IMG/VR virus record: IMGVR_UViG_3300028048_000038
Coordinates: 1-64,000 of that record
DNA length: 64,000 nt
DNA from: a virus
Taxonomy: Duplodnaviria; Caudoviricetes
Direction: 5' to 3' (one strand)
This document shows, piece after piece, positions 1-27,948 of the stretch. The notes beneath the pieces are model-generated. The model saw only the letters and a list, made by a program, of their open reading frames with translations, had not been told where the DNA came from and ran no database searches. Each line of letters begins with the position of its first letter. The first letter of the stretch is position 1. A program made the position numbers and the translations under genes.

Positions 1-819
1 TAATTCAGATGTGCCATTGTTCAATATCTGTATTGTTGCACCCACCAAATCTGCGTCAGCTCCATTCTGCTGAGATAAGTTTATAATGACTGTTTCCTTT
101 AATGTAGATACACTACCTCCCCCTAGACTTGATACAACATAGTGTGTTCCATCGTATCCAAAGAGCACCGTATCACCACTTGAGATAACATCGTCCTCGA
201 TTGGTGCTCCCTTATGATAAATTGCCTTCGCACCTTGATTGTTGACATTGAGGGTTGACCCAGATGGTACATCATTTTCGAATGTGACAGACACGAATCC
301 GTTTTTAACCAACACGTAGTCAGCCAACACCACTTCCTTCGCAAGTGTCTCAGCAGATGTTGAACATACACCAACACCGTTTCCAATCGGTGCTTGGTCA
401 TCAATTATGTCTTGTTTCTCATCAACTAACGCATTGACCTCTGCCTTTGTATAGGCATCAACAGTCAATGGGTCAACTGACTCGTCAATCCAAATTTCTA
501 TGGTATCTCCAGTTGGTGTGTCTCCGCTTGTAACTTCCACTTCCTCACCCACTTGAAGATTTTCAAGCGCTTCCGTTACAGTTGTTGCACTGTTTTCCCC
601 AGTGAACCCACTACCTAGTTTCTGTTCGGTATAATACTTGTCTGATGAGAATGTAACAATGTCATCATTTGAGTTCTTAAGTGATATTGTCTCAACGTTT
701 TCAGCATAGTTAATTGCCAATTCTCCCTCAACCAAAGCAGATGATTGTGGTAGCTTTGGTTTTCCTTCTACAACGACATTGCTTTTAATGTGTTGTATAT
801 GATTAACATTTTTTGTCAT
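1..819 (-). CDS. Tail fibre/receptor-binding protein, constant N-terminal module 1 fused to a variable cassette (runs off window start)
   Basis: Not in ORF track. Hand translation from ATG at 819 is open to base 1: MTKNVNHIQHIKSN...GNGVGVCSTSAETLAKEV...FGYDGTHYVVSSLGGGSVSTLKETVIINLSQQ. Near-identical block to 2553..3929. Confidence 0.75.
   Translation of the reverse strand, partial: MTKNVNHIQHIKSNVVVEGKPKLPQSSALVEGELAINYAENVETISLKNSNDDIVTFSSDKYYTEQKLGSGFTGENSATTVTEALENLQVGEEVEVTSGDTPTGDTIEIWIDESVDPLTVDAYTKAEVNALVDEKQDIIDDQAPIGNGVGVCSTSAETLAKEVVLADYVLVKNGFVSVTFENDVPSGSTLNVNNQGAKAIYHKGAPIEDDVISSGDTVLFGYDGTHYVVSSLGGGSVSTLKETVIINLSQQNGADADLVGATIQILNNGTSEL
112..127 (-). repeat. Putative recombination site A1 (TCTAGGGGGAGGTAGT), in frame as S-L-G-G-G-S
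   Basis: One of 7 copies in alternating orientation. Confidence 0.85.
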
Positions 820-931
820 AATATTAAAATTATTATTTTTTTTAATAGAGTTTTATTTTTTACTTAGAAATATAGATTCCAAAAATTGATAAGAATATCA
901 GCGTTTTTTTAATTAAAAATCTATTTTAATA

Positions 932-940
932 ATAAATATC
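932..940 (-). promoter_or_regulatory. Putative phage late promoter (GATATTTAT)
   Basis: TATTTAT core recurs upstream of minus-strand virion-type genes at 932, 4057, 7237, 12179, 15398, 23102. Confidence 0.45.
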
Positions 941-977
941 TTTTTGTTGTTTAAAACTATGGCATTTAACATATTAA

Positions 978-1040
978 ATTGCATTTGACTTGTGCAATAA
1001 TTGTGTGCAGTATATTGCACAATTTCTGCACACAATTAAC
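978..1040. repeat. TGTGCA/TGCACA direct+inverted repeat cluster
   Basis: ttgtgcaataattgtgtgcag...ttgcacaatttctgcacacaatt; sister cluster at 4110-4160. Confidence 0.65.
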
Positions 1041-1095
1041 AATTATAAGATTGTCACCCACCCATTTATAGGGAATATGAATATTTCCCATTTTT

Positions 1096-1113
1096 GTTCT
1101 AGGGGGAGGTAGT
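1096..1113 (+). repeat. Putative recombination site A2 (GTTCTAGGGGGAGGTAGT)
   Basis: Inverted relative to A1; heads cassette 1114..1962 in the LGGGS frame. Confidence 0.85.
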
Positions 1114-1962
1114 ATGGATTTCAATGAGACTGTTAACATAAGTATTTCTCAACTAGGTGGTAATGATTCTGATTTAATAGGTGCTACTGTCACTATTACT
1201 GAACAGCCTAATGGTAATATAATTTATTCAACAACATGGAACGGCTCAACAATTTCTATTAAAATACCAACCTCAACTAATTATAAAATCTCTGTAAGTA
1301 GTATAAACGGATATATAACACCTAAATCTAAAATTTTTACATCAGGATTCCTAAATAGGAATGTAATTCTAACATATGGTATAACAACATCAAGTTATAT
1401 AATAGATAATTCTTATGTACTATATGATGCGACAACATATCAAACAGCCAAAGACGTAGGAATGGTTAGTGATAATGACGTTTTAGGTATATTGGTAAGT
1501 TCTTCTTCTTATAGGTTTATTTTAGGTAAAGAAAATCTAGGAAGTTATTGTACAGGTAATGGAGTTGGGGCTTCATCTAGTAGATTGCCAGCATTAACAG
1601 AAGCTAATGCATTGGCTGATTATGGAGGTAAAAACAACTCAAATATATTAATTGCTGAATATGGATATACTCCTACCACAATGTACGCAGCTCTAGTTTG
1701 TTTTGACTATAAATTTGCAAATGATGAAAGAGGTTATGAACCTTCATTAGGCGAATGTACTATGATATATAACGATAAAACTAGGATTAATGCGTTATTA
1801 AATGTATGTAATGAAGATGCGTTGCCTAGCGCCTTGTCATCTAGTTCTTATTATGGTAATTATGGCGCTTCATGTTCATTCTGGGCTAAAGTCATGAGTA
1901 ATGGCGCACAAGGACCAAGTTGGAGTGCTAATCCTGTATATCCTTGTTGTTCATACGAATAA
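1114..1962 (+). CDS. Silent variable tail-fibre cassette (stalk + DUF1566/C-type-lectin-like tip)
   Basis: Begins at site A2; ETVNISISQLGGNDSDLIGATVTIT stalk shared by all cassettes; tip motif GYEPSLGE...YNDKTRINALL. Confidence 0.75.
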   Translation: MDFNETVNISISQLGGNDSDLIGATVTITEQPNGNIIYSTTWNGSTISIKIPTSTNYKISVSSINGYITPKSKIFTSGFLNRNVILTYGITTSSYIIDNSYVLYDATTYQTAKDVGMVSDNDVLGILVSSSSYRFILGKENLGSYCTGNGVGASSSRLPALTEANALADYGGKNNSNILIAEYGYTPTTMYAALVCFDYKFANDERGYEPSLGECTMIYNDKTRINALLNVCNEDALPSALSSSSYYGNYGASCSFWAKVMSNGAQGPSWSANPVYPCCSYE

Positions 1963-1968
1963 CTACTT

Positions 1969-2003
1969 AGTTCTGAATGGACTAGTGCAGGAAAAACAGC
2001 AAA
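1969..2003 (+). repeat. Site B1, 35-bp perfect inverted repeat with 3142-3176
   Basis: AGTTCTGAATGGACTAGTGCAGGAAAAACAGCAAA. Confidence 0.85.
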
Positions 2004-2520
2004 CTCAATAGTCGTAATTTCAGATGCTCATTCATATAGAGTATCTGTAAAAGGTCAAAAGAATGGTATTAAAAACAACAGCAACGATACTACTAATCCA
2101 GGAATGCCAGCGATATCTGATACACGCAATTATTTTAATGGAAAGGCAGATACACAAAAGGTATTAGCATGGAATACATCATGTGGGGCTACCGACATTA
2201 ATACATATGCAGCACCTTATTGTAATAGCTATATTTTTCCAGACGGTGTAACAAGAGGCTTCTTAATGTCTAGTGGAGAGTTATGGTTTTTGTATAACAA
2301 TAAACAACAGATAGAAGCATGTCTAACTGCTTGTGGTGGCGATGCATTTGATACCACTCGTTATACTGTTACATCTACATTTACTGGAATGTGGAGTGGG
2401 TCATTCCCTTGCTTTGATGAAATGAATTGGGGAAATGGCGGTTGGTACTCGACTAATCATGCTGACACATGGTCAAACTGTAGTACGAGACCAATAGGCG
2501 AATATACTCTACAAAAATAA
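1969..2520 (+). CDS. Tip-only silent cassette (no start codon of its own)
   Basis: Frame open from 1969 (SSEWTSAGKTANSIVVIS) into ORF 2104..2520; AAPYCNSYIFPDGVTRGFLMSSGEL...RPI. Confidence 0.7.
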   Translation, partial: SSEWTSAGKTANSIVVISDAHSYRVSVKGQKNGIKNNSNDTTNPGMPAISDTRNYFNGKADTQKVLAWNTSCGATDINTYAAPYCNSYIFPDGVTRGFLMSSGELWFLYNNKQQIEACLTACGGDAFDTTRYTVTSTFTGMWSGSFPCFDEMNWGNGGWYSTNHADTWSNCSTRPIGEYTLQK

Positions 2521-2555
2521 AGGGGTGAGAAATAATCTCACTCCTTTTTGTTTTA
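2514..2555. terminator. Bidirectional intrinsic terminator
   Basis: aaaggggtgaga-aataa-tctcactccttttt between convergent cassettes. Confidence 0.75.
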
Positions 2556-3929
2556 ATAATGCGCAATAGGTCTTGCGTATGATTTAACAGAATACATTCT
2601 ATTTGCATCTTGGAACGTTCCATTACGTTGTGTTGCTGTATAAGAGTTTTGTGCTTTATTTCCAGCATTCCACCCACAAGTAGAGGTTGCAGTTCCAGCC
2701 GATGCAGTAGTATCCCAAATAGTCAATACTGTACCACCACAAACAGTTAAGCATGCATCTATAGCTTCTTTATTCACAAATATACATGCAATCTCATACA
2801 TACCACCTAAATAACCTCGTGTTACACCATCTGGAAAAATATAACTGTTACAATATCCAGCTAGATATGAAGTACTTGGTTCAATTCCAATTATAGTGTT
2901 GGTGTAACTCTCTCCGTCTTTAAGTCCATGTGAAGTATTAGCTGCATCAGTAGTAGCAACTACATATGAGAAAGTTTTTCCGTTAAATGGTGAGTCAGTA
3001 CCATTAATAGTATAAGTACCAAGGGCACTTGCTATTGCAACATTTTTATTATCATCATCTGGGTTGCAAAAATTAAGAGTTGTTGGAGATTGTGTAAGTG
3101 CTACTCTGCATTGGTATTTTTCCATAATTAGGACAACACTATTTGCTGTTTTTCCTGCACTAGTCCATTCAGAACTTCTATAAAGAGTTCCATCTGTGGC
3201 TTCAACATACGCACCAACTCCAGTATATTTGAAATTGATGCCAAGTATACGTCCAGGCTTAGATATATATTGTTGTTCTGAAGGCGTTATATATCCACTA
3301 ACTGAGCCAACTACTATTTTATAGTTTGTTACGGCTTCAATTTCATATTCAAGCGTGTCTCCTTGCCATGTGGTAGATAACAATGTGGTTGAAGTATCAA
3401 GGTCAGTTATTGTAATTGTTGCGTCTATAAGGTCTTCATTATATCCACCAATTTGTTCAAGATTTATTTCAACAATTTCACTTAAGTTAATACTACCTCC
3501 CCCTAGAGAGGATACAACATAATGAGAACCATCATAACCGAACATGACGGTATCACCACTTGAGATAACATCGTCCTCGATTGGTGCTCCCTTATGATAT
3601 ATTGGTTTCGCTCCTTGGTTATTGATATTAAGTGTAGCCCCAGATGGAACATCGTTTTCAAACGTGATTGACACAAAACCATTCTGAGTTATCTTATATC
3701 CTTCAATATCTACTTCCTTTGCTATTGTTTCAGCAGAGGTTTCACATGTCCCAACACCATTTCCCATTGATTCTGGTGTTATATCTTCAATGATTTCTGT
3801 AACTGCGCTTTGTGACATAACATCGGCACTAGACGTGCCTGTTGTTTGAACGACATTTACCTCATTGACCATTACTTGGTTGAGCAAATGCCATTCCCCA
3901 TCTTTACCTTTATATTTAATTCCAGGCAT
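2553..3929 (-). CDS. Tail fibre/receptor-binding protein, constant module 2 + currently joined cassette
   Basis: 458 aa; VVQTTGTSSADVMSQSAVT fibre motif, SSLGGGS junction, stalk, lectin-like tip. Confidence 0.8.
   Translation of the reverse strand: MPGIKYKGKDGEWHLLNQVMVNEVNVVQTTGTSSADVMSQSAVTEIIEDITPESMGNGVGTCETSAETIAKEVDIEGYKITQNGFVSITFENDVPSGATLNINNQGAKPIYHKGAPIEDDVISSGDTVMFGYDGSHYVVSSLGGGSINLSEIVEINLEQIGGYNEDLIDATITITDLDTSTTLLSTTWQGDTLEYEIEAVTNYKIVVGSVSGYITPSEQQYISKPGRILGINFKYTGVGAYVEATDGTLYRSSEWTSAGKTANSVVLIMEKYQCRVALTQSPTTLNFCNPDDDNKNVAIASALGTYTINGTDSPFNGKTFSYVVATTDAANTSHGLKDGESYTNTIIGIEPSTSYLAGYCNSYIFPDGVTRGYLGGMYEIACIFVNKEAIDACLTVCGGTVLTIWDTTASAGTATSTCGWNAGNKAQNSYTATQRNGTFQDANRMYSVKSYARPIAHY
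3142..3176 (-). repeat. Site B2 (inverted copy of B1), inside the full-length gene
   Basis: Exact reverse complement of 1969-2003. Confidence 0.85.
3492..3507 (-). repeat. Putative recombination site A3
   Basis: actacctccccctaga, in frame in 2553..3929. Confidence 0.85.
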
Positions 3930-4109
3930 AATATTTATATTTTATTTTTTAATAATTATTTATTTTCCTTTTATATGGTTATTGAACCGAATAATTGACA
4001 AGCATGTCAGCGTTATAAAGATTGTATAAATAATCCCATAATAATTATTCTTTTTTATAAATATCACGTTACTGTTATATTTTTGTTTTTTAATGGGTTA
4101 AAAGTGAAT

Positions 4110-4160
4110 AAATTGTGCAAAAATTGTGCAATGTAATGCACACAAATAATGCACAATTTT
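4110..4160. repeat. TGTGCA/TGCACA repeat cluster
   Basis: aattgtgcaaaaattgtgcaa...tgcacacaaataatgcacaatt. Confidence 0.65.
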
Positions 4161-4207
4161 CATATATAACATTGAAAAAGACCTTTTAGGAAAAGGGGAG
4201 GAGATGT

Positions 4208-5083
4208 ATGCTTGTTTCCGTTCTAGGGGGAGGTAGTACATCTAGGGGTGTTGAAACACTAGTCATTAATGTGATTACACAAGGAGATAGTTCTGAAACG
4301 TTAGGTGCTACTATTACAGTGACAAACAATGACACTAGTTCTGTTATAAGCGCAACAACATGGCAAGGGATACAGATAACGATTGAAGTGCCACAGTATT
4401 GTAATTACACTATCACATTAGGTAATGTTGCTGGTTACTCAACCCCGCAAGCACAAACATACCATTCAAGTCCTAACTTTGTAAGGAATACGGCATTTAC
4501 ATACATTGGAACTGGTGCATATATTGAGTCCACTGATGGTATACTATATACTGCCTCGAATTGGTCATCAGCAGGAAAAACAGCAAATTCTGTTGTCTTA
4601 TTAACAAGTAACAAACAATTCAGAATAGCCTTGCCACAATTTGGACCGTTTACAAGTTATGACCCAGAAAACCAATCTGTTAGACAAATTGGGTCAAACA
4701 AATCAGAAAGTTCTGTAAAAGCAGACTTCAACGGAGAGCAATATACTACAAAAATGAGAACACAAGGTTATGCTCCAATTCCAGATAATGACAGTTATGC
4801 ATTCTCAAAGGCTTGGAGATACACATTCCCAAATGGAAGAAACACAGGATTCCTTCCCTCAATGGGTTATCTGTGGCTGATGTATCAGAATAAAACCGCT
4901 ATTGCTAATTGTATGTCTGCTGCTGGAGGTTCTATTAGTGGAGTTTTGATGTCTGCAAATTTTGCGCATGCTGAAGTTGAAAATTGGGAATTCCAATGGT
5001 TATTTAATTGGGATAGCGGAGCTTCTACTATGTCTATACAAGGTACATCTCATTATTGTAAACCAATTTCAAATTATAAATAA
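4208..5083 (+). CDS. Variable tail-fibre cassette
   Basis: VLGGGS at start, stalk, AYIESTDGILYTASNWSSAGKTANSVVL, GFLPSMGYLWLMYQNK tip. Confidence 0.75.
   Translation: MLVSVLGGGSTSRGVETLVINVITQGDSSETLGATITVTNNDTSSVISATTWQGIQITIEVPQYCNYTITLGNVAGYSTPQAQTYHSSPNFVRNTAFTYIGTGAYIESTDGILYTASNWSSAGKTANSVVLLTSNKQFRIALPQFGPFTSYDPENQSVRQIGSNKSESSVKADFNGEQYTTKMRTQGYAPIPDNDSYAFSKAWRYTFPNGRNTGFLPSMGYLWLMYQNKTAIANCMSAAGGSISGVLMSANFAHAEVENWEFQWLFNWDSGASTMSIQGTSHYCKPISNYK
4220..4237 (+). repeat. Putative recombination site A4
   Basis: gttctagggggaggtagt. Confidence 0.85.
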
Positions 5084-5112
5084 GTTCTAGTTGTTGTTCT
5101 ATACTAAAAATA

Positions 5113-5150
5113 ATAAAGGGTAAGATTCAACGTCTTACCCCTTATTTTTT
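5113..5150. terminator. Bidirectional intrinsic terminator
   Basis: aaagggtaaga-ttcaacg-tcttaccccttatttttt. Confidence 0.7.
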
Positions 5151-5688
5151 AAGTTTTTAATACCTCTTCATATGGTTTCCAATCTATACTATCTTTCTTT
5201 TGCCAACCTTCATTAAGACATTTATTTATATAAGCAAAAGCTTTAGTATAAAAGTCACTAATATCTTCTAAAGTTTCAAAAGTATGATATATTGGTTCTC
5301 CGCCTTGTTCTTTACCTTCTTCATCATAAGTCTTAGGTGTTTGTCCAATCTTAAATGTTACAGGTAAAGAAGCACCATTAGTTTGAAGTGCTAAATCATA
5401 AGCAGCTTTAAAATTAAACTGATTTTCAGTAGATAACCAAACTGGAATATTATTCCAAATAAAGCCATCTATTATAGTAGAAGTTGTCCTATTATCTATA
5501 TCATCTATAATAGCATTTTTCACATCTTGAAATGAAATATAACTCTTCTGCTTCTTGTAAAAGTATAATTCATACCAAGTAGCATTTACGTCATCTCCAA
5601 CTTCTTGATAGCCATAACTAACAATCCATCTAATAGTATCCTCTTTAACAAGGATATAGTCTGATATAATTCCAAATACTTTATTCAT
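5149..5688 (-). CDS. DUF4376-like tail fibre assembly chaperone
   Basis: GFIWNNIPVWLSTENQFNFKAAYDLA...LPVTFKIG; paralog of 6617..7183; directly downstream of a fibre cassette. Confidence 0.65.
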   Translation of the reverse strand: MNKVFGIISDYILVKEDTIRWIVSYGYQEVGDDVNATWYELYFYKKQKSYISFQDVKNAIIDDIDNRTTSTIIDGFIWNNIPVWLSTENQFNFKAAYDLALQTNGASLPVTFKIGQTPKTYDEEGKEQGGEPIYHTFETLEDISDFYTKAFAYINKCLNEGWQKKDSIDWKPYEEVLKT

Positions 5689-5701
5689 AATACTTTCATT
5701 T

Positions 5702-6547
5702 TTATTTCATAATGGCACGCATTGGCAATCCAACGCATCTATCATAGTTAGCGCCAAGACCACCGCCGTTAGCATCAAAATAATACCCATTATTTGGCGT
5801 TGACGTGTAAAATGTAGCTGTCCAAACTTCTGGATATGAACCTTCTCCACTTATTTCAGAACTCATGTAATACCTGCCAGCTCTGGGGAAGAATATAAAA
5901 ACATTGCTATCAGACTTATTCTTATATTTTACACCTGACACACCGTTGATTGTCGCATTTTCTTTATTTGTATAGTTTACAAGTTCAGTAAATTCTTCAT
6001 TAGTAGGTGTTCTCCAACTTTTCCCCATATTCACTGTTGCAGCATCATAAGTGCCTGTAATATTTCCACTCAGTGATGAACCTGTTGTATTGTTATAGTT
6101 ACTCCTATCAAAACTATAACCACTTCCCTTGGCATGACCTTCTGTATTTCCCCATGAAAAATATAATCCGTAACCCTCTGGTGTTGATGCCCCAACATTA
6201 CGTGTACACCACATATTTCCACTGGGAAGCCCTAAGTCAACAACATAACCAAGATATAAGAAGTTGACAATTCTTGACACTCCAGAAACTGCTGTATAAG
6301 AACAACTGGTTTGTTCTATATAATAGTCATTGACATTTCCGACGTTTACTGTGTAATTAACTCCATCGTTTACTTGAATAGCAATAACACTACCATCCCA
6401 TGTAGTAGAAAGAATAGTTTCAGAAGTATCATCGTTTGTAACTACTACTGCTGTTCCAATCAAAGCAGAGTCACTACCGCCACTTTGTGTAAGCTGGATA
6501 GTTACAAATTCAGGCCATACAATAGTTCCGCTACCTCCCCCTAGAAC
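5702..6547 (-). CDS. Variable cassette with a different tip family (VDLGLPSG-type DUF1566/Fib_succ_major-like)
   Basis: Starts at site A5; VDLGLPSGNMWCTRNVGA...YFSWG...DAATVNMGKSWRTPT...GLPMRAI. Confidence 0.75.
   Translation of the reverse strand, partial: VLGGGSGTIVWPEFVTIQLTQSGGSDSALIGTAVVVTNDDTSETILSTTWDGSVIAIQVNDGVNYTVNVGNVNDYYIEQTSCSYTAVSGVSRIVNFLYLGYVVDLGLPSGNMWCTRNVGASTPEGYGLYFSWGNTEGHAKGSGYSFDRSNYNNTTGSSLSGNITGTYDAATVNMGKSWRTPTNEEFTELVNYTNKENATINGVSGVKYKNKSDSNVFIFFPRAGRYYMSSEISGEGSYPEVWTATFYTSTPNNGYYFDANGGGLGANYDRCVGLPMRAIMK
6531..6547 (-). repeat. Putative recombination site A5
   Basis: ctacctccccctagaac, immediately downstream of a terminator. Confidence 0.85.
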
Positions 6548-6578
6548 AAAAAAAGAGCAACCCATCATAGGTTGCTCC
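6548..6578 (-). terminator. Intrinsic terminator silencing cassette 5702..6547
   Basis: gagcaacc...ggttgctc stem with T7 tail on minus strand. Confidence 0.7.
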
Positions 6579-6616
6579 ATTATAATATTTTGGCAAAATA
6601 TCTCTTTCAAGTCATT

Positions 6617-7183
6617 TTATTCTGTATACAATGACCAATCGAATGCTTCCTTCTTCTCCCATCCGTCCTTATAGGTATCAGATATATACTTAATTGCAGA
6701 TGTATAGAAATCCTCCAATTCCTCAAAGGTCTTGAACTCATAATAGATTGGTGTTGTATCTGTTCCGAACTTGAACGTTACTGGCAAGTTCTTCCCCTCA
6801 CTCTGAACTGCAAGGTCATATTCAGCCTTATAGTTGAACTGATTCTCAGTTGACAACCATACATTCATATCATTCCACACGAAACCATTCAATATCTTCT
6901 GGTCAATCTCTGGATTATACCAATCAGAAATCAGTTTCCTCATTGCAGCTTCGGTTCTTTCACCTCTAAAATAGGTTACAAGCACGTTGCAATAATCGGT
7001 ATCCTCATATCCAATGATGATTGGATTGCCCTTATCATCGACAACAATGTTTCCATCCTTATCCTTCTCATAGATTGGGTTGGTAACGTCTTCAGTCTTA
7101 AACATCAACTTGCTTCTCTGTTCGTTGATTATCGTTACTGGCTGATAATCAGCCTTCAATATCATTTCTTTAATTATTCCCAT
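6617..7183 (-). CDS. DUF4376-like tail fibre assembly chaperone
   Basis: GFVWNDMNVWLSTENQFNYKAEYDLA; start placed at MGIIKEM (7183). Confidence 0.65.
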   Translation of the reverse strand: MGIIKEMILKADYQPVTIINEQRSKLMFKTEDVTNPIYEKDKDGNIVVDDKGNPIIIGYEDTDYCNVLVTYFRGERTEAAMRKLISDWYNPEIDQKILNGFVWNDMNVWLSTENQFNYKAEYDLAVQSEGKNLPVTFKFGTDTTPIYYEFKTFEELEDFYTSAIKYISDTYKDGWEKKEAFDWSLYTE

Positions 7184-7291
7184 AATATTATCTGTATGAT
7201 TTTTTTTATTAATTCTTATTTTTTTTAATCTTATCAATAAATATCAGATGGTAGGGAAAAATGTGTTGTTACGGCAATATAATTTTAAAAA

Positions 7292-7309
7292 GTTCTAGGG
7301 GGAGGTAGT
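7292..7309 (+). repeat. Putative recombination site A6
   Basis: gttctagggggaggtagt. Confidence 0.85.
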
Positions 7310-8167
7310 ATTGATTTAAGCGAGACTGTGAATATAACATTGACTCAAGTTAGGGGATATGATGCTGACATAATTGGGGCAACAGTGACGGTTACAGACC
7401 TTGATACTTCAACTGTGTTATTATCTACCACATGGCAAGGAAATGCCATCACGTTAGACATTGAGGCTGTTACCAACTATAAGGTTGAGGTTGGAAGCGT
7501 TGTGGGTTATATAACTCCTTCTAGCCAACAATATATATCAAAGCCTAGCAGAGAACTTAACATAACATTTCAATATGGTGCATTGGGTGTTTATATTGAA
7601 GCAATTGATGGCACATTGTACACTAGTTCTAGTTGGAGTAGTGCTAGTAAAACACCCAACTCTGTTGTTCTGCTTACGGATAATGTTAAAAGAAGAATAG
7701 CATTAGTGCAGTATCAAGCTCCTTGGTTAGATGGAGACCACACAGAATTATTTAATGTTGTTCCAGCAAGCAATGATTTGCTAGATGCATATGATAGAAA
7801 TGCCACGCTAGTTACTTGGTTTAAGAATAAAGGGTTTTATAACAGCAATTATGCTATTCCATTGGCGAATAAATATATCTTCCCAGATGGGGTAACAAAG
7901 GGATATTTACCTGGCTATCTAGAAATACAAGTTTTATATGATAATAAAACTGAAATAAACGCTTGTTTTACTGCGTTATCTTCTCAAGCTACTCCATTTA
8001 TTAATACTTCTGAAGCTTTTAAAGCAGCTTATTGGACTTGTGAAATATCTACCGCTTGGACTTTTACCGTTTGGAGATATTCTTGGTATTGTGGACATGA
8101 GGGAAACGACCTTTCTCACGAAACTGATAATATATATATTAGACCAATAGCACATTATGAGGTATAA
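7292..8167 (+). CDS. Variable tail-fibre cassette
   Basis: Frame open from A6 (VLGGGSIDLSETVNITLTQ) into ORF 7328..8167; stalk close to that of 2553..3929. Confidence 0.75.
   Translation, partial: VLGGGSIDLSETVNITLTQVRGYDADIIGATVTVTDLDTSTVLLSTTWQGNAITLDIEAVTNYKVEVGSVVGYITPSSQQYISKPSRELNITFQYGALGVYIEAIDGTLYTSSSWSSASKTPNSVVLLTDNVKRRIALVQYQAPWLDGDHTELFNVVPASNDLLDAYDRNATLVTWFKNKGFYNSNYAIPLANKYIFPDGVTKGYLPGYLEIQVLYDNKTEINACFTALSSQATPFINTSEAFKAAYWTCEISTAWTFTVWRYSWYCGHEGNDLSHETDNIYIRPIAHYEV
7627..7654 (+). repeat. Site B3, 28-bp perfect inverted repeat with 8744-8771
   Basis: TTCTAGTTGGAGTAGTGCTAGTAAAACA. Confidence 0.85.
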
Positions 8168-8171
8168 AATA

Positions 8172-8208
8172 CAAAAAGGGTAAGACAAATAATCTTACCC
8201 TTTATTTG
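8172..8208. terminator. Bidirectional intrinsic terminator
   Basis: aaaagggtaaga-caaataa-tcttaccctttattt. Confidence 0.7.
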
Positions 8209-8212
8209 TTAT

Positions 8213-8771
8213 TTAGTAATCAGTAACTGGAATCACAGTATATGCATTGTCCATATATGCAGCATAACCACTATATGTTCCTTTATTGTTTCCATAAATA
8301 GCTTCAAACGCATCCTTTCCACCAGGCGTTGATATAGAATATGTCGAAGTATAATATCTATTTGAGTGGTCCATACCTGGAGGTATTAATTCTGAAGCCC
8401 CACAAGCAATCATACATGCATTGAGAGAACTGTAATTGTTATTAATTAGAACTGCTTGTCCAGAAGACATTAAATATGGTGTCTTACCACCATAGGCAAA
8501 GGTATAAGCACGACAATATGGGGCAGCATAATTTGTGTTATTAATTCCTCTTGAAATACAATAAGTAATCAGATTATCAGTATCTTTTACGCCATTAAAA
8601 TATGTTAATGGAGAAGAAACTTTACCGCCCATGTATTGATACATTGTTCCAGCCGTAGGGCTTTCATTGCTTATTGGTAATTTAGTTTGTGTCAACGCCA
8701 TTCTGAAACTGCACTCATTTGAAATAAGAACTACTGAATTAGCTGTTTTACTAGCACTACTCCAACTAGAA
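8213..8771 (-). CDS. Tip-only silent cassette
   Basis: SSWSSASKTANSVVLIS...NYAAPYCRAYTF; begins at B4 directly after a terminator. Confidence 0.7.
8744..8771 (-). repeat. Site B4 (inverted copy of B3)
   Basis: Exact reverse complement of 7627-7654. Confidence 0.85.
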
Positions 8772-8775
8772 TTAA

Positions 8776-8815
8776 AATAAAAGGGTAAGACTTCGAATCT
8801 TACCCTTTTATTATT
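8776..8815. terminator. Intrinsic terminator (near copy of 5113-5150)
   Basis: aaaagggtaaga-cttcgaa-tcttaccctttt. Confidence 0.7.
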
Positions 8816-8831
8816 TTTAGTATAGAGCAAC

Positions 8832-8902
8832 AACTTGCTTCTTTGCTCGTTGATTATCGTCACTAGCTGATAGTCAGCCTTGAGAATTGTTTCCTTTATC
8901 AT
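8832..8902 (-). pseudogene. Truncated 5' remnant of DUF4376-like chaperone
   Basis: MIKETILKADYQLVTIINEQRSKL matches IIKEMILKADYQPVTIINEQRSKL of 6617..7183, then homology stops abruptly. Confidence 0.7.
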
Positions 8903-8918
8903 AATTTCTATTTTTATA

Positions 8919-9764
8919 TTAATATGGTGCTGCTACTCTCGGTTGATAACCTCTTTCAGTAAATACTTCTGAAGTCATAATATTATTAACATCTACAAAT
9001 GATGTAGCATTATAAAGTGTAGAAGTCTTCCAATAGTAATCATACATTGCTGTACCGCCACAAGCAGTCAGACATTCACTTATAGCAGTTTTATTTTGTT
9101 TTACAACTACCGTCTGCCAACTTGAAAGCAACATACCTTTTGTTATACCATCAGCGAAAGTAATAGACCTACAATAAGGTGCTATATAATTTGTATTATT
9201 TGTTCCATAAGTATCATTAAACAAAATAAGTTTATCTGTATTCCCCTCTCCATCATAATCTTCTGACCTTCCCTTCATAGGTAAATAAGCTGATATTGGG
9301 TCAGTATTATTACTATGATATGGTTTATCTACAGCATCTATAGAAGGATGTAATCTGAATTGTGTTTTCTCTGCTATAACTACAATTGCATTCACAGTTT
9401 TTCCAGCAGAAGACCATTGCTCTTTTGTGTACAACTGATGGTCAGTTGATTCAATATAAATACCTAATGTGCCATATTGAAACGACAAATTTCTTGTTTT
9501 GCCAATCCCAGCCACATAGGAGTAGCTGTTTATTGAAACTTTGTAACCTGTAACACTTCCTACTTCAACTTTATATGACGTACTTGTTGGTATATTATAA
9601 GTGACAGTAGTTCCATTCCATGTTGTACTATAGAGGGTTTCTTGGCTTTCTACATCAGTAATTGTAATAGTTGTTCCAATCAAATCTGTATCATAGCCCC
9701 TTACTTGTGTCAATGTTACATTAACTGTTTCATACAATTCCACATCTCCACCTCCCCCTAGAAC
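8919..9764 (-). CDS. Variable tail-fibre cassette
   Basis: Frame open from A7 (VLGGGGDVELYETVNVTLTQ) through ORF 8919..9743. Confidence 0.75.
   Translation of the reverse strand, partial: VLGGGGDVELYETVNVTLTQVRGYDTDLIGTTITITDVESQETLYSTTWNGTTVTYNIPTSTSYKVEVGSVTGYKVSINSYSYVAGIGKTRNLSFQYGTLGIYIESTDHQLYTKEQWSSAGKTVNAIVVIAEKTQFRLHPSIDAVDKPYHSNNTDPISAYLPMKGRSEDYDGEGNTDKLILFNDTYGTNNTNYIAPYCRSITFADGITKGMLLSSWQTVVVKQNKTAISECLTACGGTAMYDYYWKTSTLYNATSFVDVNNIMTSEVFTERGYQPRVAAPY
9748..9764 (-). repeat. Putative recombination site A7 (GTTCTAGGGGGAGGTGG)
   Basis: ccacctccccctagaac; terminator immediately upstream. Confidence 0.8.
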
Positions 9765-9765
9765 A

Positions 9766-9798
9766 AATAAAAAAGGACAACCATTTCTGATTGTCCTT
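9766..9798 (-). terminator. Terminator of 775-aa gene
   Basis: aaggacaa...ttgtcctt stem with T tail on minus strand. Confidence 0.65.
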
Positions 9799-9816
9799 CA
9801 TAAAATTTTATCTCAT

Positions 9817-12144
9817 TTATCCTTCACTGTCGAAGAAACGTCCCATAGAGTGCAATATATCGGTATCATATACCTCATGAGCAAGCATTCCAAGAAGCTT
9901 GTTAATGTTCATATAGTCACCTTCAATCCACATATATACGCTGCCATCCTCCATCACCTCAAGGGCATTGCTCCTATTGGCGTTGCTAGTTCCATTACCG
10001 ATTGAGAATACAGTGTTTCCAGAAGCATCCTCACTTGTGTGACTTGCATTATAAGTACCGAATGCAACCTCATTCTCATGCTTCTTCTCAAGGGTCTCGT
10101 TATCAGCATATCCAAGCTTCTGTAGAAGAGCATTAAATACGGTCAAATCAGTCTTTCTCTCATCAAGAGACTCAACCTCAACGTTAAGGGTTTGTATACC
10201 CTCTGTGTTTGCACTGACTTGTTCTGCAAGCGCATCAAACTCGCCCTTGTCTGCCTTCTCGTCAAGAAGTGCGTCAGTTTCTTCCTTCGTATAATAGTTT
10301 GACAAGTCAATCAACTCACCCACTGGGAATTCAACCGTCTTCTCACCCTCTGGCGTGAAATACGTGATTATAATCTTCTCGTCCTCAACCTTAATCTCCT
10401 TGATTGAACCACCTGTTTCAACAAACTCATGGAACTCTCTATGAAGTACGTCAAGGATACCATTTCCACTATTGTCATACTCTGCTGGGTCATCACCATC
10501 CCACGCTGTTATCGTGTTGATTCTGTTGGCATTATGGTCAATTTCATATGTATTTGCTGATATTGCACTTGTATTTGCCCTTACAGCAACCCATAGTCCG
10601 CTTTCTGCTTGTTCAGCACGCTCTCTCTCTTCAGTTGCAGCATCTGCGATTTCAGTCTCAAGTTCTGCCTTAAGCTCATTTCTAGAGTTGTCAACATATG
10701 TCACATCAGCCTTTGCTGTAAGTTTTCTGTCAACGTCCTCGAATTCGCTCTCAATATCGCCTCTAAGCTCTGCAATCTTGTCATCCGTATAGGTTTCAGC
10801 CTCAGTTACAGCTTGTCTTGCCTTGTTAGTGCCATAGTTCTTTGCAGCCCATATGGTGTCCTTGGTAACATCGTCATCCTCATGACCAATCAAGTCAAGG
10901 TCTGCTTGTGTTCTGTCAGCAATCTCTTGCGCAAGACCACTCTCAAGTGCGGCAATCTTATTGTCATGGATTACATCCTTCTCCTTAAGTGCGTCAATGT
11001 CATCACCAATGCCATCAATCTCAGCTTGTAGAGCATTGTCACCATTTATTCTATCGGCAATCTCTTGGTCAAGTCTGTTATTTGTCTCATTAACTGAATC
11101 AATGACTTGTGTTAGTGCCGTGTTGTCAGCCTTCTTCTCGTCCATGTCATTGAATTGGTCTGCCACAGCATTCTTATACTCATTGAATTCAGACTCGTCA
11201 ACCTTATTCTCTATCTTTTCCTCAAGGACTTCAACTCTATCCTCAAGGGCATCCAAATCCTCTTGGTTTGCCTTCTTTGCAACTTCTTCCTCAAGAGCGT
11301 CTATATCAGCCTCATTCTGTGTTGTTCTTTCATCCAATGAGATTACATCTCCACTGATGGTATTGACCTTTGTGGTGATATCACCAGAGAACTCATTGAG
11401 TTCTGTTTCCAATGCATCTATCTTTGAGTTGGTTTCATCCTTAAATGCATTGAGGTCTTCCACTGTCTCATCAACGAGGTTGGATAGTTCATCGAATGAT
11501 TCCTTCTTTGCGTATCTCTCATCACCTTCTTCAACGTTGAAATATCCTTGTTCTTCAACCCATTCCTTTGTTGCATAGTCACAGAGTTTGCTATCCAATA
11601 TACCATCTATCTCGCATTTTGAGTAAGTGTCTTCTTTTTTTGCAAATGTCCTATCTGCATAGCCACTGTATTCATTGACCATGTGTTTAGCCTCTGCGAT
11701 ACCTTCAAGGGTTTCTGCACTGAGAGTCTCGACCTTTCCAGATAATTCATTGACATCATGTCTTAAGTCATCCACAACACATTCTAGAGAGCCAACTGTT
11801 GCGATTGTATCGTTCAATCCTTCTGTGATTGCGCTAAGTTGCTCTCCATATTCGTTGTCGATTTCTTTCAATGTGTTGATATCAGAATTGATATTATCAA
11901 ACTGTTCAACCACCATGTTATTGAACTCAGTTTGGGCTGAGATAAGTGTCTCAACTGTGCCGCTAAGTTCATCTAGGTCTTTTTTATCTGCCTTTTTATT
12001 ATTGAGGCAATCGATTTCGCTATCTTGCTCTTTGTTTTTCTTTATGATTTCAGACAAGTCAGCACTAGAGTTAATGTCGCTAGTGTATCTATTTTGGTCT
12101 GGGAAACCATAGAACTCCAAATGTCTTATAAATTGTTTTGCCAT
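9817..12144 (-). CDS. Long acidic coiled-coil fibre/virion protein
   Basis: 775 aa, heptad-like acidic repeats, YYTKEETDALL and FSIGNGTSNANRSNALEV fibre-type motifs. Confidence 0.6.
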   Translation of the reverse strand: MAKQFIRHLEFYGFPDQNRYTSDINSSADLSEIIKKNKEQDSEIDCLNNKKADKKDLDELSGTVETLISAQTEFNNMVVEQFDNINSDINTLKEIDNEYGEQLSAITEGLNDTIATVGSLECVVDDLRHDVNELSGKVETLSAETLEGIAEAKHMVNEYSGYADRTFAKKEDTYSKCEIDGILDSKLCDYATKEWVEEQGYFNVEEGDERYAKKESFDELSNLVDETVEDLNAFKDETNSKIDALETELNEFSGDITTKVNTISGDVISLDERTTQNEADIDALEEEVAKKANQEDLDALEDRVEVLEEKIENKVDESEFNEYKNAVADQFNDMDEKKADNTALTQVIDSVNETNNRLDQEIADRINGDNALQAEIDGIGDDIDALKEKDVIHDNKIAALESGLAQEIADRTQADLDLIGHEDDDVTKDTIWAAKNYGTNKARQAVTEAETYTDDKIAELRGDIESEFEDVDRKLTAKADVTYVDNSRNELKAELETEIADAATEERERAEQAESGLWVAVRANTSAISANTYEIDHNANRINTITAWDGDDPAEYDNSGNGILDVLHREFHEFVETGGSIKEIKVEDEKIIITYFTPEGEKTVEFPVGELIDLSNYYTKEETDALLDEKADKGEFDALAEQVSANTEGIQTLNVEVESLDERKTDLTVFNALLQKLGYADNETLEKKHENEVAFGTYNASHTSEDASGNTVFSIGNGTSNANRSNALEVMEDGSVYMWIEGDYMNINKLLGMLAHEVYDTDILHSMGRFFDSEG

Positions 12145-27848: not shown

Positions 27849-27948
27849 GGTAGGATAAAACAAACCATAGCGACTGGTAAGACACGTTAGCGAGATTGCA
27901 ATGATGCGTGTGTTGGAACACCAAGATTGGGGAAACCTACCTATTTTT
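27849..27948 (+). ncRNA. Structured RNA motif, copy 1
   Basis: 26-nt and 18-nt blocks identical to 47581-47675 (minus), closed by GGTAGG/CCTACC stem. Confidence 0.6.

What the first reader, a model, noticed from the sequence alone, without database searches (positions are those of the whole stretch)
1969..8771. Second, nested tier of inversion that swaps only the tip domain
Seen: a perfect 35-bp inverted repeat (1969-2003 / 3142-3176) and a different perfect 28-bp inverted repeat (7627-7654 / 8744-8771). Each pair has one copy in frame at the stalk/tip boundary of a full cassette (SSxWxSAxKT) and the other at the head of a start-less tip-only cassette. A bidirectional terminator lies between the two convergent tips. 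The same peptide at ~4556-4590 and ~9390-9420 uses diverged codons, so the nucleotide identity is pair-specific. Inference: hierarchical combinatorics (N-terminus x stalk x tip). Both site classes begin with TTCT(AG), suggesting one recombinase with a short shared core.
Basis: partly seen in the sequence, partly recalled or inferred. Interest (0 to 1): 0.88.

Follow-up and report, generated by a model that had tools for sequence, protein, structure and literature searches.

The report
Nested tip-swap switches in jumbo-phage shufflon
A 410-kb cattle-gut phage that demonstrably shuffles whole adhesin cassettes by DNA inversion also keeps four spare, start-less binding tips behind a second set of short sites, laid out so that a further flip would swap only the tip; the layout is real and under selection, but the second flip itself was not observed.

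Summary
Both perfect inverted repeats (35 and 28 bp) are real, in frame, and not misjoins. They sit inside an eight-cassette tyrosine-recombinase shufflon of a 409.5-kb rumen phage. The outer tier is shown active: alternative junctions occur in assemblies and other strains. A second assembly fills a gap and adds two more start-less tips, so there are four silent tips in three site classes, not two. All share GTTC/xTxC-N5-GGA(C/G)T with class-specific 5-nt middles, and resemble the outer site. Every stalk with such a site has an adjacent partner with the same middle; stalks without a site have none. Silent tip b is conserved start-less in another strain with pN/pS 0.27, including upstream of its only ATG. 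No flipped inner isomer was found in contigs or protein databases. The tier is pair-restricted (12 variable ends instead of 8), not free stalk x tip mixing. The site lies about 15 residues inside a C-type-lectin-like domain, not at the linker. Closest precedents are Rin/Rci shufflons and pneumococcal or Bacteroides hsdS multi-repeat loci. The scan has noted nested fibre switches before on other DNA (P1-like elements, a Clostridia-type prophage). Verdict: new variant; inner flipping probable, likely rare, unproven.

The parts
1969..2003 (+). Inner site B1, silent copy (core AGTTC-TGAAT-GGACT) at the head of tip b
   Evidence: exact repeat; 17-nt core kept in another strain, L099
1969..2520 (+). 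Tip-only cassette b, 183 codons, first ATG at codon 46, six bases behind the stop of cassette a
   Evidence: pN/pS 0.27 vs L099
2519..2547 (.). Terminator-like hairpin between convergent tips b and c
   Evidence: both strands
2553..3929 (-). Complete gene: constant N-terminus N2 + Ig-like stalk c + tip c (458 aa)
   Evidence: bridged by RNA-library contigs
3142..3176 (-). Inner site B1, in-frame copy in cassette c
   Evidence: in-silico flip gives an open 434-aa N2-c-b frame
7295..8167 (+). Silent stalk+tip cassette e (Ig-like domain + C-type-lectin-like domain)
   Evidence: fused to N1 in another strain (P0059/L112)
7627..7654 (+). Inner site B2, in-frame copy in cassette e (core AGTTC-TAGTT-GGAGT from 7625)
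   Evidence: core kept in L112; absent from the stalk-e orthologue with another tip, L100/L101
8175..8203 (.). Bidirectional terminator-like hairpin between tips e and f
8213..8771 (-). Tip-only cassette f, 186 codons
   Evidence: in-silico flip gives an open e-f frame
8744..8771 (-). Inner site B2, silent copy at the head of tip f
8776..8902 (-). Terminator hairpin plus truncated chaperone head upstream of tip f; same 83-bp block precedes tip v outside the window
7581..7631 (+). 51 bp shared exactly by stalk e and stalk z (outside the window), ending at TTCTA where the B2 identity begins
   Evidence: explains the contig start at 7602
1..819 (-). Constant N-terminus N1 + outer site (112-127) + start of cassette z, whose tip carries inner site B3 (middle TAATT) just outside the window
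1097..1112 (+). Outer (A) site of cassette a; further A sites at 112-127(-), 3492-3507(-), 4221-4236(+), 6531-6546(-), 7293-7308(+), 9749-9764(-) and behind the recombinase at C1:409410
   Evidence: alternative junctions
4223..5083 (+). Control: cassette d, same peptide, no inner-site core, no tip-only partner
8919..9761 (-). Control: cassette g, same peptide, no inner-site core, no tip-only partner

Best explanation
The locus is a two-level shufflon for a phage adhesin (probably a tail fibre or other virion receptor-binding protein; inferred). Level 1 (shown): the one tyrosine recombinase of the genome, which ends directly at an outer site, inverts segments between eight outer sites and puts one of eight stalk+tip cassettes behind either of two constant N-termini. 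Level 2 (anatomy shown, flipping inferred): three cassettes (c, e, z) carry a degenerate site in the codons S-S-x-W-(S/T) near the start of their lectin-like domain. An adjacent start-less tip with the same 5-nt middle (b; f; v and w) lies in inverted orientation or one flip away. The same recombinase, at lower efficiency, would cross over in that middle and replace about 180 residues of the binding domain in frame. Because strand exchange by tyrosine recombinases needs matching overlap regions (established for Cre/lox and lambda Int; own knowledge), each class would pair only with itself. This gives 12 variable ends per N-terminus instead of 8.
For: Exact repeats far beyond shuffles. Pattern GTTCT-N4-GGA(C/G)(G/T) occurs 8 times in the window against 0.18 expected (pattern drawn from these sites) and 9 times in 409 kb, all in this locus. 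Four silent tips begin at the same codon position behind unrelated DNA with intact 166-190-codon frames (chance of 170 open codons about 3e-6). 3 of 3 stalked cassettes with a site have a same-middle partner. d, g and y have neither, a and h lack the motif and have no partner of their own, and seven distinct boundary sequences from relatives also lack the core. z shares only 9-10 bp with v/w, too short for homologous recombination. In-silico flips keep the frame in all three classes. Tip b is start-less with the same core in a second strain, pN/pS 0.27, p=1e-4; codons 1-45, upstream of the only ATG, give pN 0.048 vs pS 0.20, p=0.015. A third strain has another start-less tip with a fourth middle, TGAGT. 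Only one site-specific recombinase found in the genome. Outer tier active: recombinase-site-z in this record vs recombinase-site-y in two other assemblies; N1 joined to h and to e. Precedent for one tyrosine recombinase acting on several repeat classes through a shared short core: PsrA, PMC7096588.
Against: No flipped inner isomer seen. In the probable source run, one contig spans 7602-8824 through both 28-bp copies, and others span the z, v and w sites, while contigs break at outer sites 1099, 4223, 6544 and behind the recombinase. This is weak, because contigs drop rare variants and outer site g (9761) is unbroken too. The 35-bp pair is longer than the 31-base words and cannot be tested this way. 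No protein joining a spare tip to a stalk was found. The TAGT element lies one base closer to the middle in inner than in outer sites, and z lacks it, so the enzyme may not accept inner sites. Assembled parts of close relatives (L085, L086, L100, L102) have the outer tier with no spare tips, so the tier is not universal. Cassette a's stop is in frame with b, an alternative though unlikely route to expression.
Confidence: 0.5

Rival explanations
1. The spare tips are real donors, but they are swapped by homology-driven or recombinase-independent inversion or gene conversion across the 28-35-bp repeats (phage or host recombination proteins), not by the shufflon recombinase.
For: The perfect identity extends 11-18 bp beyond the shared core, as gene conversion would leave. 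z and e share 51 bp upstream and other 50- and 83-bp repeats exist in the locus. Two weak RecA-family matches in the genome, below cut-off. Low-frequency PsrA-independent inversions are known for the longer cod repeats (PMC7096588).
Against: z shares only 9-10 bp with v/w. All silent heads start at the same short core that resembles the outer site. In L099 the bases 3' of the core have changed while the core has not, though this has little statistical power.
Confidence: 0.22
2. The tip-only cassettes are scars of rare past recombination at secondary sites, a slow evolutionary reservoir with no switching on ecological time scales.
For: The locus holds other scars that break at CTAG/CAAGTTG-like motifs: three truncated chaperone heads and a site-like motif at 5084-5095; a joint 5087/8838 in another strain. 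No inner isomer detected. Several relatives lack spare tips.
Against: Four intact frames of 22-42% mutual identity. Purifying selection on b while start-less in two strains. An independent start-less tip in L105.
Confidence: 0.22
3. Spare tips are expressed on their own, from internal starts or by read-through, as separate small proteins.
For: b has an ATG at codon 46 and follows a's stop in frame; f is in frame with an upstream ATG.
Against: w has no ATG/GTG/TTG in its first 60 codons; v and w have stops just upstream; terminators precede f and v. All lack the first hairpin of the domain. Selection acts upstream of b's ATG. None of this explains the repeats.
Confidence: 0.04
4. The repeats are assembly misjoins between co-existing strains.
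For: Metagenomic assembly; the record's 'inverted terminal repeat' is itself a product of the shufflon.
Against: An independent assembly is 100% identical over 1-4238. Depth is even (about 39-55x) with no other letters in the source run. The a-to-b junction recurs in another animal.
Confidence: 0.02

Closest known systems
Rin shufflon of Bifidobacterium prophages (Mavrich et al. 2018, PMC6109161)
   Same: Phage-encoded tyrosine recombinase beside several variable C-terminal receptor-binding cassettes, short asymmetric sites, inversions seen between assemblies.
   Different: Rin has one constant N-terminus, one 11-bp site class and five cassettes. Here there are two N-termini, eight two-domain cassettes and three extra inner site classes with four spare tips, in a 410-kb phage.
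Pneumococcal cod/hsdS locus with PsrA (PMC7096588) and B. fragilis hsdS locus with four inverted repeats (PMC7641763)
   Same: Several distinct repeat pairs at different positions in one gene swap different parts of a specificity protein; silent half-genes; in cod one tyrosine recombinase acts on all classes through a shared short core.
   Different: Those are restriction-modification genes with demonstrated inversion at each pair, and two cod repeats are long (85, 298 bp). Here the target is a phage adhesin, the repeats are 10-35 bp, each inner class serves one stalk, and inner inversion is not shown.
R64 shufflon, Rci/sfx (as described in PMC11852207)
   Same: Outer sites have a conserved core and right side and a variable left side; the recombinase gene abuts the array.
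   Different: sfx sites form one class with one core. That paper found no fully orthogonal enzyme/site pair, whereas this locus appears to hold four core classes.
Tail-fibre shufflon of BV01-like Phocaeicola phages (preprint PMC13596623)
   Same: Bacteroidales phage, recombinase plus cassettes at the distal end of a fibre gene; its 10-bp motif read on the other strand also begins AGTTCT.
   Different: Three cassettes, six variants, a single motif, a small temperate phage.
Min of p15B; Gin (Mu) and Cin (P1)
   Same: Inversion-driven switching of fibre ends.
   Different: Serine invertases (PMC6109161); no serine recombinase above cut-off here.

Membership tests
Tyrosine-recombinase shufflon (Rci/Rin type) | Tyrosine recombinase gene adjoining the cassette array | tested here: met
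   PF00589 E 5.5e-21 at C1:408153-409409; its stop codon runs into an outer site
Tyrosine-recombinase shufflon (Rci/Rin type) | Multiple short asymmetric sites in both orientations with conserved core and right side | tested here: met
   Eight outer sites
Tyrosine-recombinase shufflon (Rci/Rin type) | Constant 5' gene part fused in frame to alternative 3' cassettes | tested here: met
   N1-z, N1-h, N1-e, N2-c
Tyrosine-recombinase shufflon (Rci/Rin type) | Alternative isomers observed at the sites | tested here: met
   Outer tier only
Tyrosine-recombinase shufflon (Rci/Rin type) | The adjoining enzyme catalyses the inversions | not testable with these tools
   Needs a knockout or heterologous assay
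Multi-repeat domain-swapping inverton (cod/hsdS type) | Two or more distinct repeat classes at different positions within the target gene, with silent part-genes | tested here: met
   Outer class plus inner B1, B2, B3; four tip-only cassettes
Multi-repeat domain-swapping inverton (cod/hsdS type) | Each repeat class inverts in the population | tested here: inconclusive
   No inner isomer in contigs or proteins; only contigs were available, which drop rare variants; B1 is longer than the word size
Multi-repeat domain-swapping inverton (cod/hsdS type) | One recombinase serves all classes through a shared core | not testable with these tools
   Shared GTTC..GGA(C/G) frame but one-base offset of TAGT
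Phage receptor-binding fibre | Adhesin-type distal domain and assembly chaperone | tested here: inconclusive
   Model pLDDT 92: Ig-like 1-92 plus lectin-like domain; matches 4EPS Z 15.0 (rmsd 10.7, 248 aligned), Lcl C-terminal domain 8Q4E Z 10.3 (rmsd 3.1, 122 aligned). Neighbour matches DUF4376 below cut-off. No PHROG tail annotation.

The most novel reading that the evidence does not exclude
One phage tyrosine recombinase runs four mutually exclusive site classes written into protein-coding codons and told apart only by a 5-nt overlap region: a frequent outer class that moves whole cassettes and three private inner classes that exchange most of a lectin-like binding domain. This would be a natural counterpart of engineered incompatible lox variants, in a lytic-type jumbo phage, and strains would keep evolving new middles (TGAAT, TGAGT, TAGTT, TAATT).
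Probability: 0.4. Interest if true: 0.8.

Novelty: new variant of a known kind. Interest (0 to 1): 0.6.

Why it matters
Described phage shufflons use one site class. A hierarchical one would let a rumen jumbo phage keep a fast switch and a slower reserve of binding tips against the phase-variable surfaces of its host (probably Bacteroidales; inferred from recombinase and structural relatives). It also offers a ready test of whether one invertase can run orthogonal site classes by overlap identity alone, which synthetic-biology work on shufflon invertases has sought without success (PMC11852207). A practical point: the record's 'inverted terminal repeat' is a shufflon artefact that hides 2.9 kb of the locus.

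Tried and rejected
Laying four runs (contigs only) showed no joint at the inner sites. RNA-library contigs bridge 2545-3599 and 2563-3881 in the c-c state; tip b had no cover there, which proves nothing. The two strong 'joints' 7637/8906 and 8780/8863 first looked like rearrangements but are most simply contigs of the unassembled z-v-w gap, whose ends resemble those places. Searching tip b against longer proteins, and a ten-tip profile against near-length proteins and 1.8 billion representatives, found no spare tip fused to a stalk. IMG/VR, GTDB genomes and GenBank phages hold no close relative of the fibre, tip or recombinase. Pattern scans gave chance hits only; the metagenome scan gave two useful loci of 66 (L023, L077). 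The partner boundary in L099 and L112 lies beyond the contig ends, so co-evolution of partner heads could not be tested. Conservation of synonymous sites within the 17-nt core has no power at this divergence. A recalled match to a B. fragilis repeat class AGTTC-N5-GAACT could not be confirmed in the paper library and is not used. The other end of the ENA assembly is not held. A weak resolvase hit at C1:295224 (E 0.009) is below cut-off.
Full report
Setting. The window is bases 1-64000 of a 409,537-bp virus record found mainly in cattle-gut runs. It has 46 tRNA calls and a single tyrosine recombinase at the far end of the contig, C1:408153-409409. No serine recombinase passes its cut-off.

Observation. 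The 35-bp and 28-bp inverted repeats are exact and are the longest in the window; shuffles give at most 20 bp. One copy of each lies in frame in a stalk+tip cassette (c, e), the other at the head of a tip-only frame (b, f), with hairpins between the convergent tips. Cassette d differs in the 5' core but shares 18 bp with c further 3', so only the core is pair-specific. Tip f is formally in frame with the ATG of a truncated chaperone head at 8902, across a terminator; the equivalent block before tip v is closed by stops.

The full locus. The contig ends with recombinase, outer site and the same 126 bases that open the window on the other strand. An ENA assembly (L083) is 100% identical over 1-4238 and fills the missing 2.9 kb: recombinase, site, cassette y, truncated chaperone, tip-only w, convergent tip-only v, terminator, truncated chaperone, cassette z, N1. 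A JGI contig agrees (L077). So the recombinase slot holds z in one assembly and y in two others. The locus has two constant N-termini, eight stalk+tip cassettes (y, z, a, c, d, h, e, g) and four spare tips (b, f, v, w).

Outer tier is active (shown). Besides the z/y difference, contigs of the probable source run break exactly at outer sites 1085-1114, 4220-4249 and 6531-6560, where shared sequence is shorter than the 31-base word, and behind the recombinase. A second sample joins N1 to h (6530 to 113). Another strain has N1 fused to e.

Inner sites. Aligned, all sites read xxTTC or similar, a 5-nt middle, then GGA(C/G)(T/G): outer TAGGG (eight copies), B1 TGAAT (b, c), B2 TAGTT (e, f), B3 TAATT (z, v, w). 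GTTCT-N4-GGA(C/G)(G/T) occurs 8 times in the window against 0.18 expected and only in this locus genome-wide; the pattern was drawn from the sites, so this shows kinship between classes, not function. Each stalked cassette with a site has an adjacent spare tip with the same middle. d, g and y have the peptide but not the core; a and h lack the motif and have no partner of their own. Seven distinct boundary sequences from relatives also lack the core, including a stalk-e orthologue that carries another tip. The 51 bp shared by stalks z and e ends at TTCTA, where the e/f identity begins. In-silico flips keep the frame in all three classes. One discordance: TAGT follows one base earlier in inner than in outer sites, and z lacks it.

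What is swapped. The model of cassette e (pLDDT 92) has an Ig-like domain (1-92) and a domain matching C-type-lectin-like folds of a Bacteroides fimbrial protein and Legionella Lcl. The site falls at residues about 106-111, after the first hairpin of that domain. Spare tips therefore lack part of the fold and would need the stalk cassette to supply it (inference). That the protein is a tail fibre is inferred from fold, modularity and a weak DUF4376 neighbour; no family names it.

Are the spare tips used? All four frames are intact and 22-42% alike. In another animal (L099) tip b is again start-less behind cassette a, keeps the 17-nt core, and shows pN/pS 0.27, p=1e-4; codons 1-45, upstream of the only ATG, give p=0.015. 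Its convergent neighbour there is a different tip. L105 shows an unrelated start-less tip with middle TGAGT. w has no start codon in its first 60 codons. Selection on an untranslatable frame is best explained by occasional in-frame fusion.

Is the inner flip seen? No. A source-run contig spans 7602-8824 through both B2 copies; its ends are explained by the 51-bp and 83-bp repeats with the gap region. Contigs also span the B3 sites. B1 is longer than the word size and cannot be judged. Contigs drop rare variants, and outer site g is unbroken too, so this bounds the frequency rather than excluding the event. No swapped protein is on record. Assembled parts of several close relatives have the outer tier without spare tips.

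Mechanism. Shown: anatomy, frames, outer-tier isomers, selection on b. Inferred: inner inversion, the enzyme, class exclusivity through the 5-nt middle (by analogy with overlap-region matching in tyrosine recombinases, own knowledge). I put about 0.72 on the spare tips being swapped in by recombination, split 0.5 for the shufflon recombinase and 0.22 for homology-driven exchange; 0.22 on slow evolutionary scars; the rest on stand-alone expression or artefact. The gain is 12 variable ends per N-terminus instead of 8, not a free stalk x tip product.

Comparison. The outer tier is a member of the Rin/Rci kind (PMC6109161, PMC11852207) and resembles the BV01 shufflon (PMC13596623). The inner tier works like the multi-repeat hsdS loci, where PsrA acts on three repeat classes through a shared core (PMC7096588) or four repeats give eight proteins (PMC7641763); membership is inconclusive because inner inversion is unshown. 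I found no paper describing such a tier in a phage tyrosine shufflon. Earlier notes of this scan report nested fibre switches in P1-like elements and a Clostridia-type prophage (unchecked here). Verdict: new variant of a known kind, interest 0.6.

Noticed in passing
window 1-127 and G000 C1:409411-409537: The record's 'inverted terminal repeat' is not a genome end: it is cassette z assembled in two shufflon states. The genome closes through 2.9 kb present in L083 4239-7113.
   Followed up: yes
L104 299-5113: A relative with the same N1 and outer sites has a cassette ending in an Lcl_C domain followed by a reverse transcriptase gene, suggesting a DGR inside the shufflon.
   Followed up: no
window 5084-5120, 8804-8902; L083 4990-5110 and about 6200-6250: Three truncated chaperone heads break at CTAG/CAAGTTG-like motifs; 5084-5095 has the B2 left arm and middle with a decayed right side; another strain shows a joint 5087/8838. 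Probable scars of secondary-site recombination.
   Followed up: partly
window 9749-9764: Outer site g is the only one lacking TAG after GGAGG and is unbroken in the source-run contig 8848-10500, hinting that this element matters for activity.
   Followed up: partly
window 2519-2547 vs L099 746-775: The terminator loop between tip b and its neighbour is the reverse complement in the other strain, where the neighbour tip also differs; the hairpin may be an exchange point.
   Followed up: no
G000 C1:136577-136653; L093-L096: The genome has a tRNA with a CUA anticodon, and related fibre genes in other phages translate only with TAG read as Gln.
   Followed up: no
window 27379-54685: A motif TGCAAAGATACGAAA recurs about 20 times on both strands between small genes, probably a phage promoter.
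   Followed up: no
window 27853-27937 and 47594-47667: 26-bp and 18-bp exact inverted matches about 20 kb apart.
   Followed up: no
L087, L090, L093-L096: More distant phages carry the same stalk+tip genes with no outer or inner sites, as fixed single or tandem genes.
   Followed up: partly
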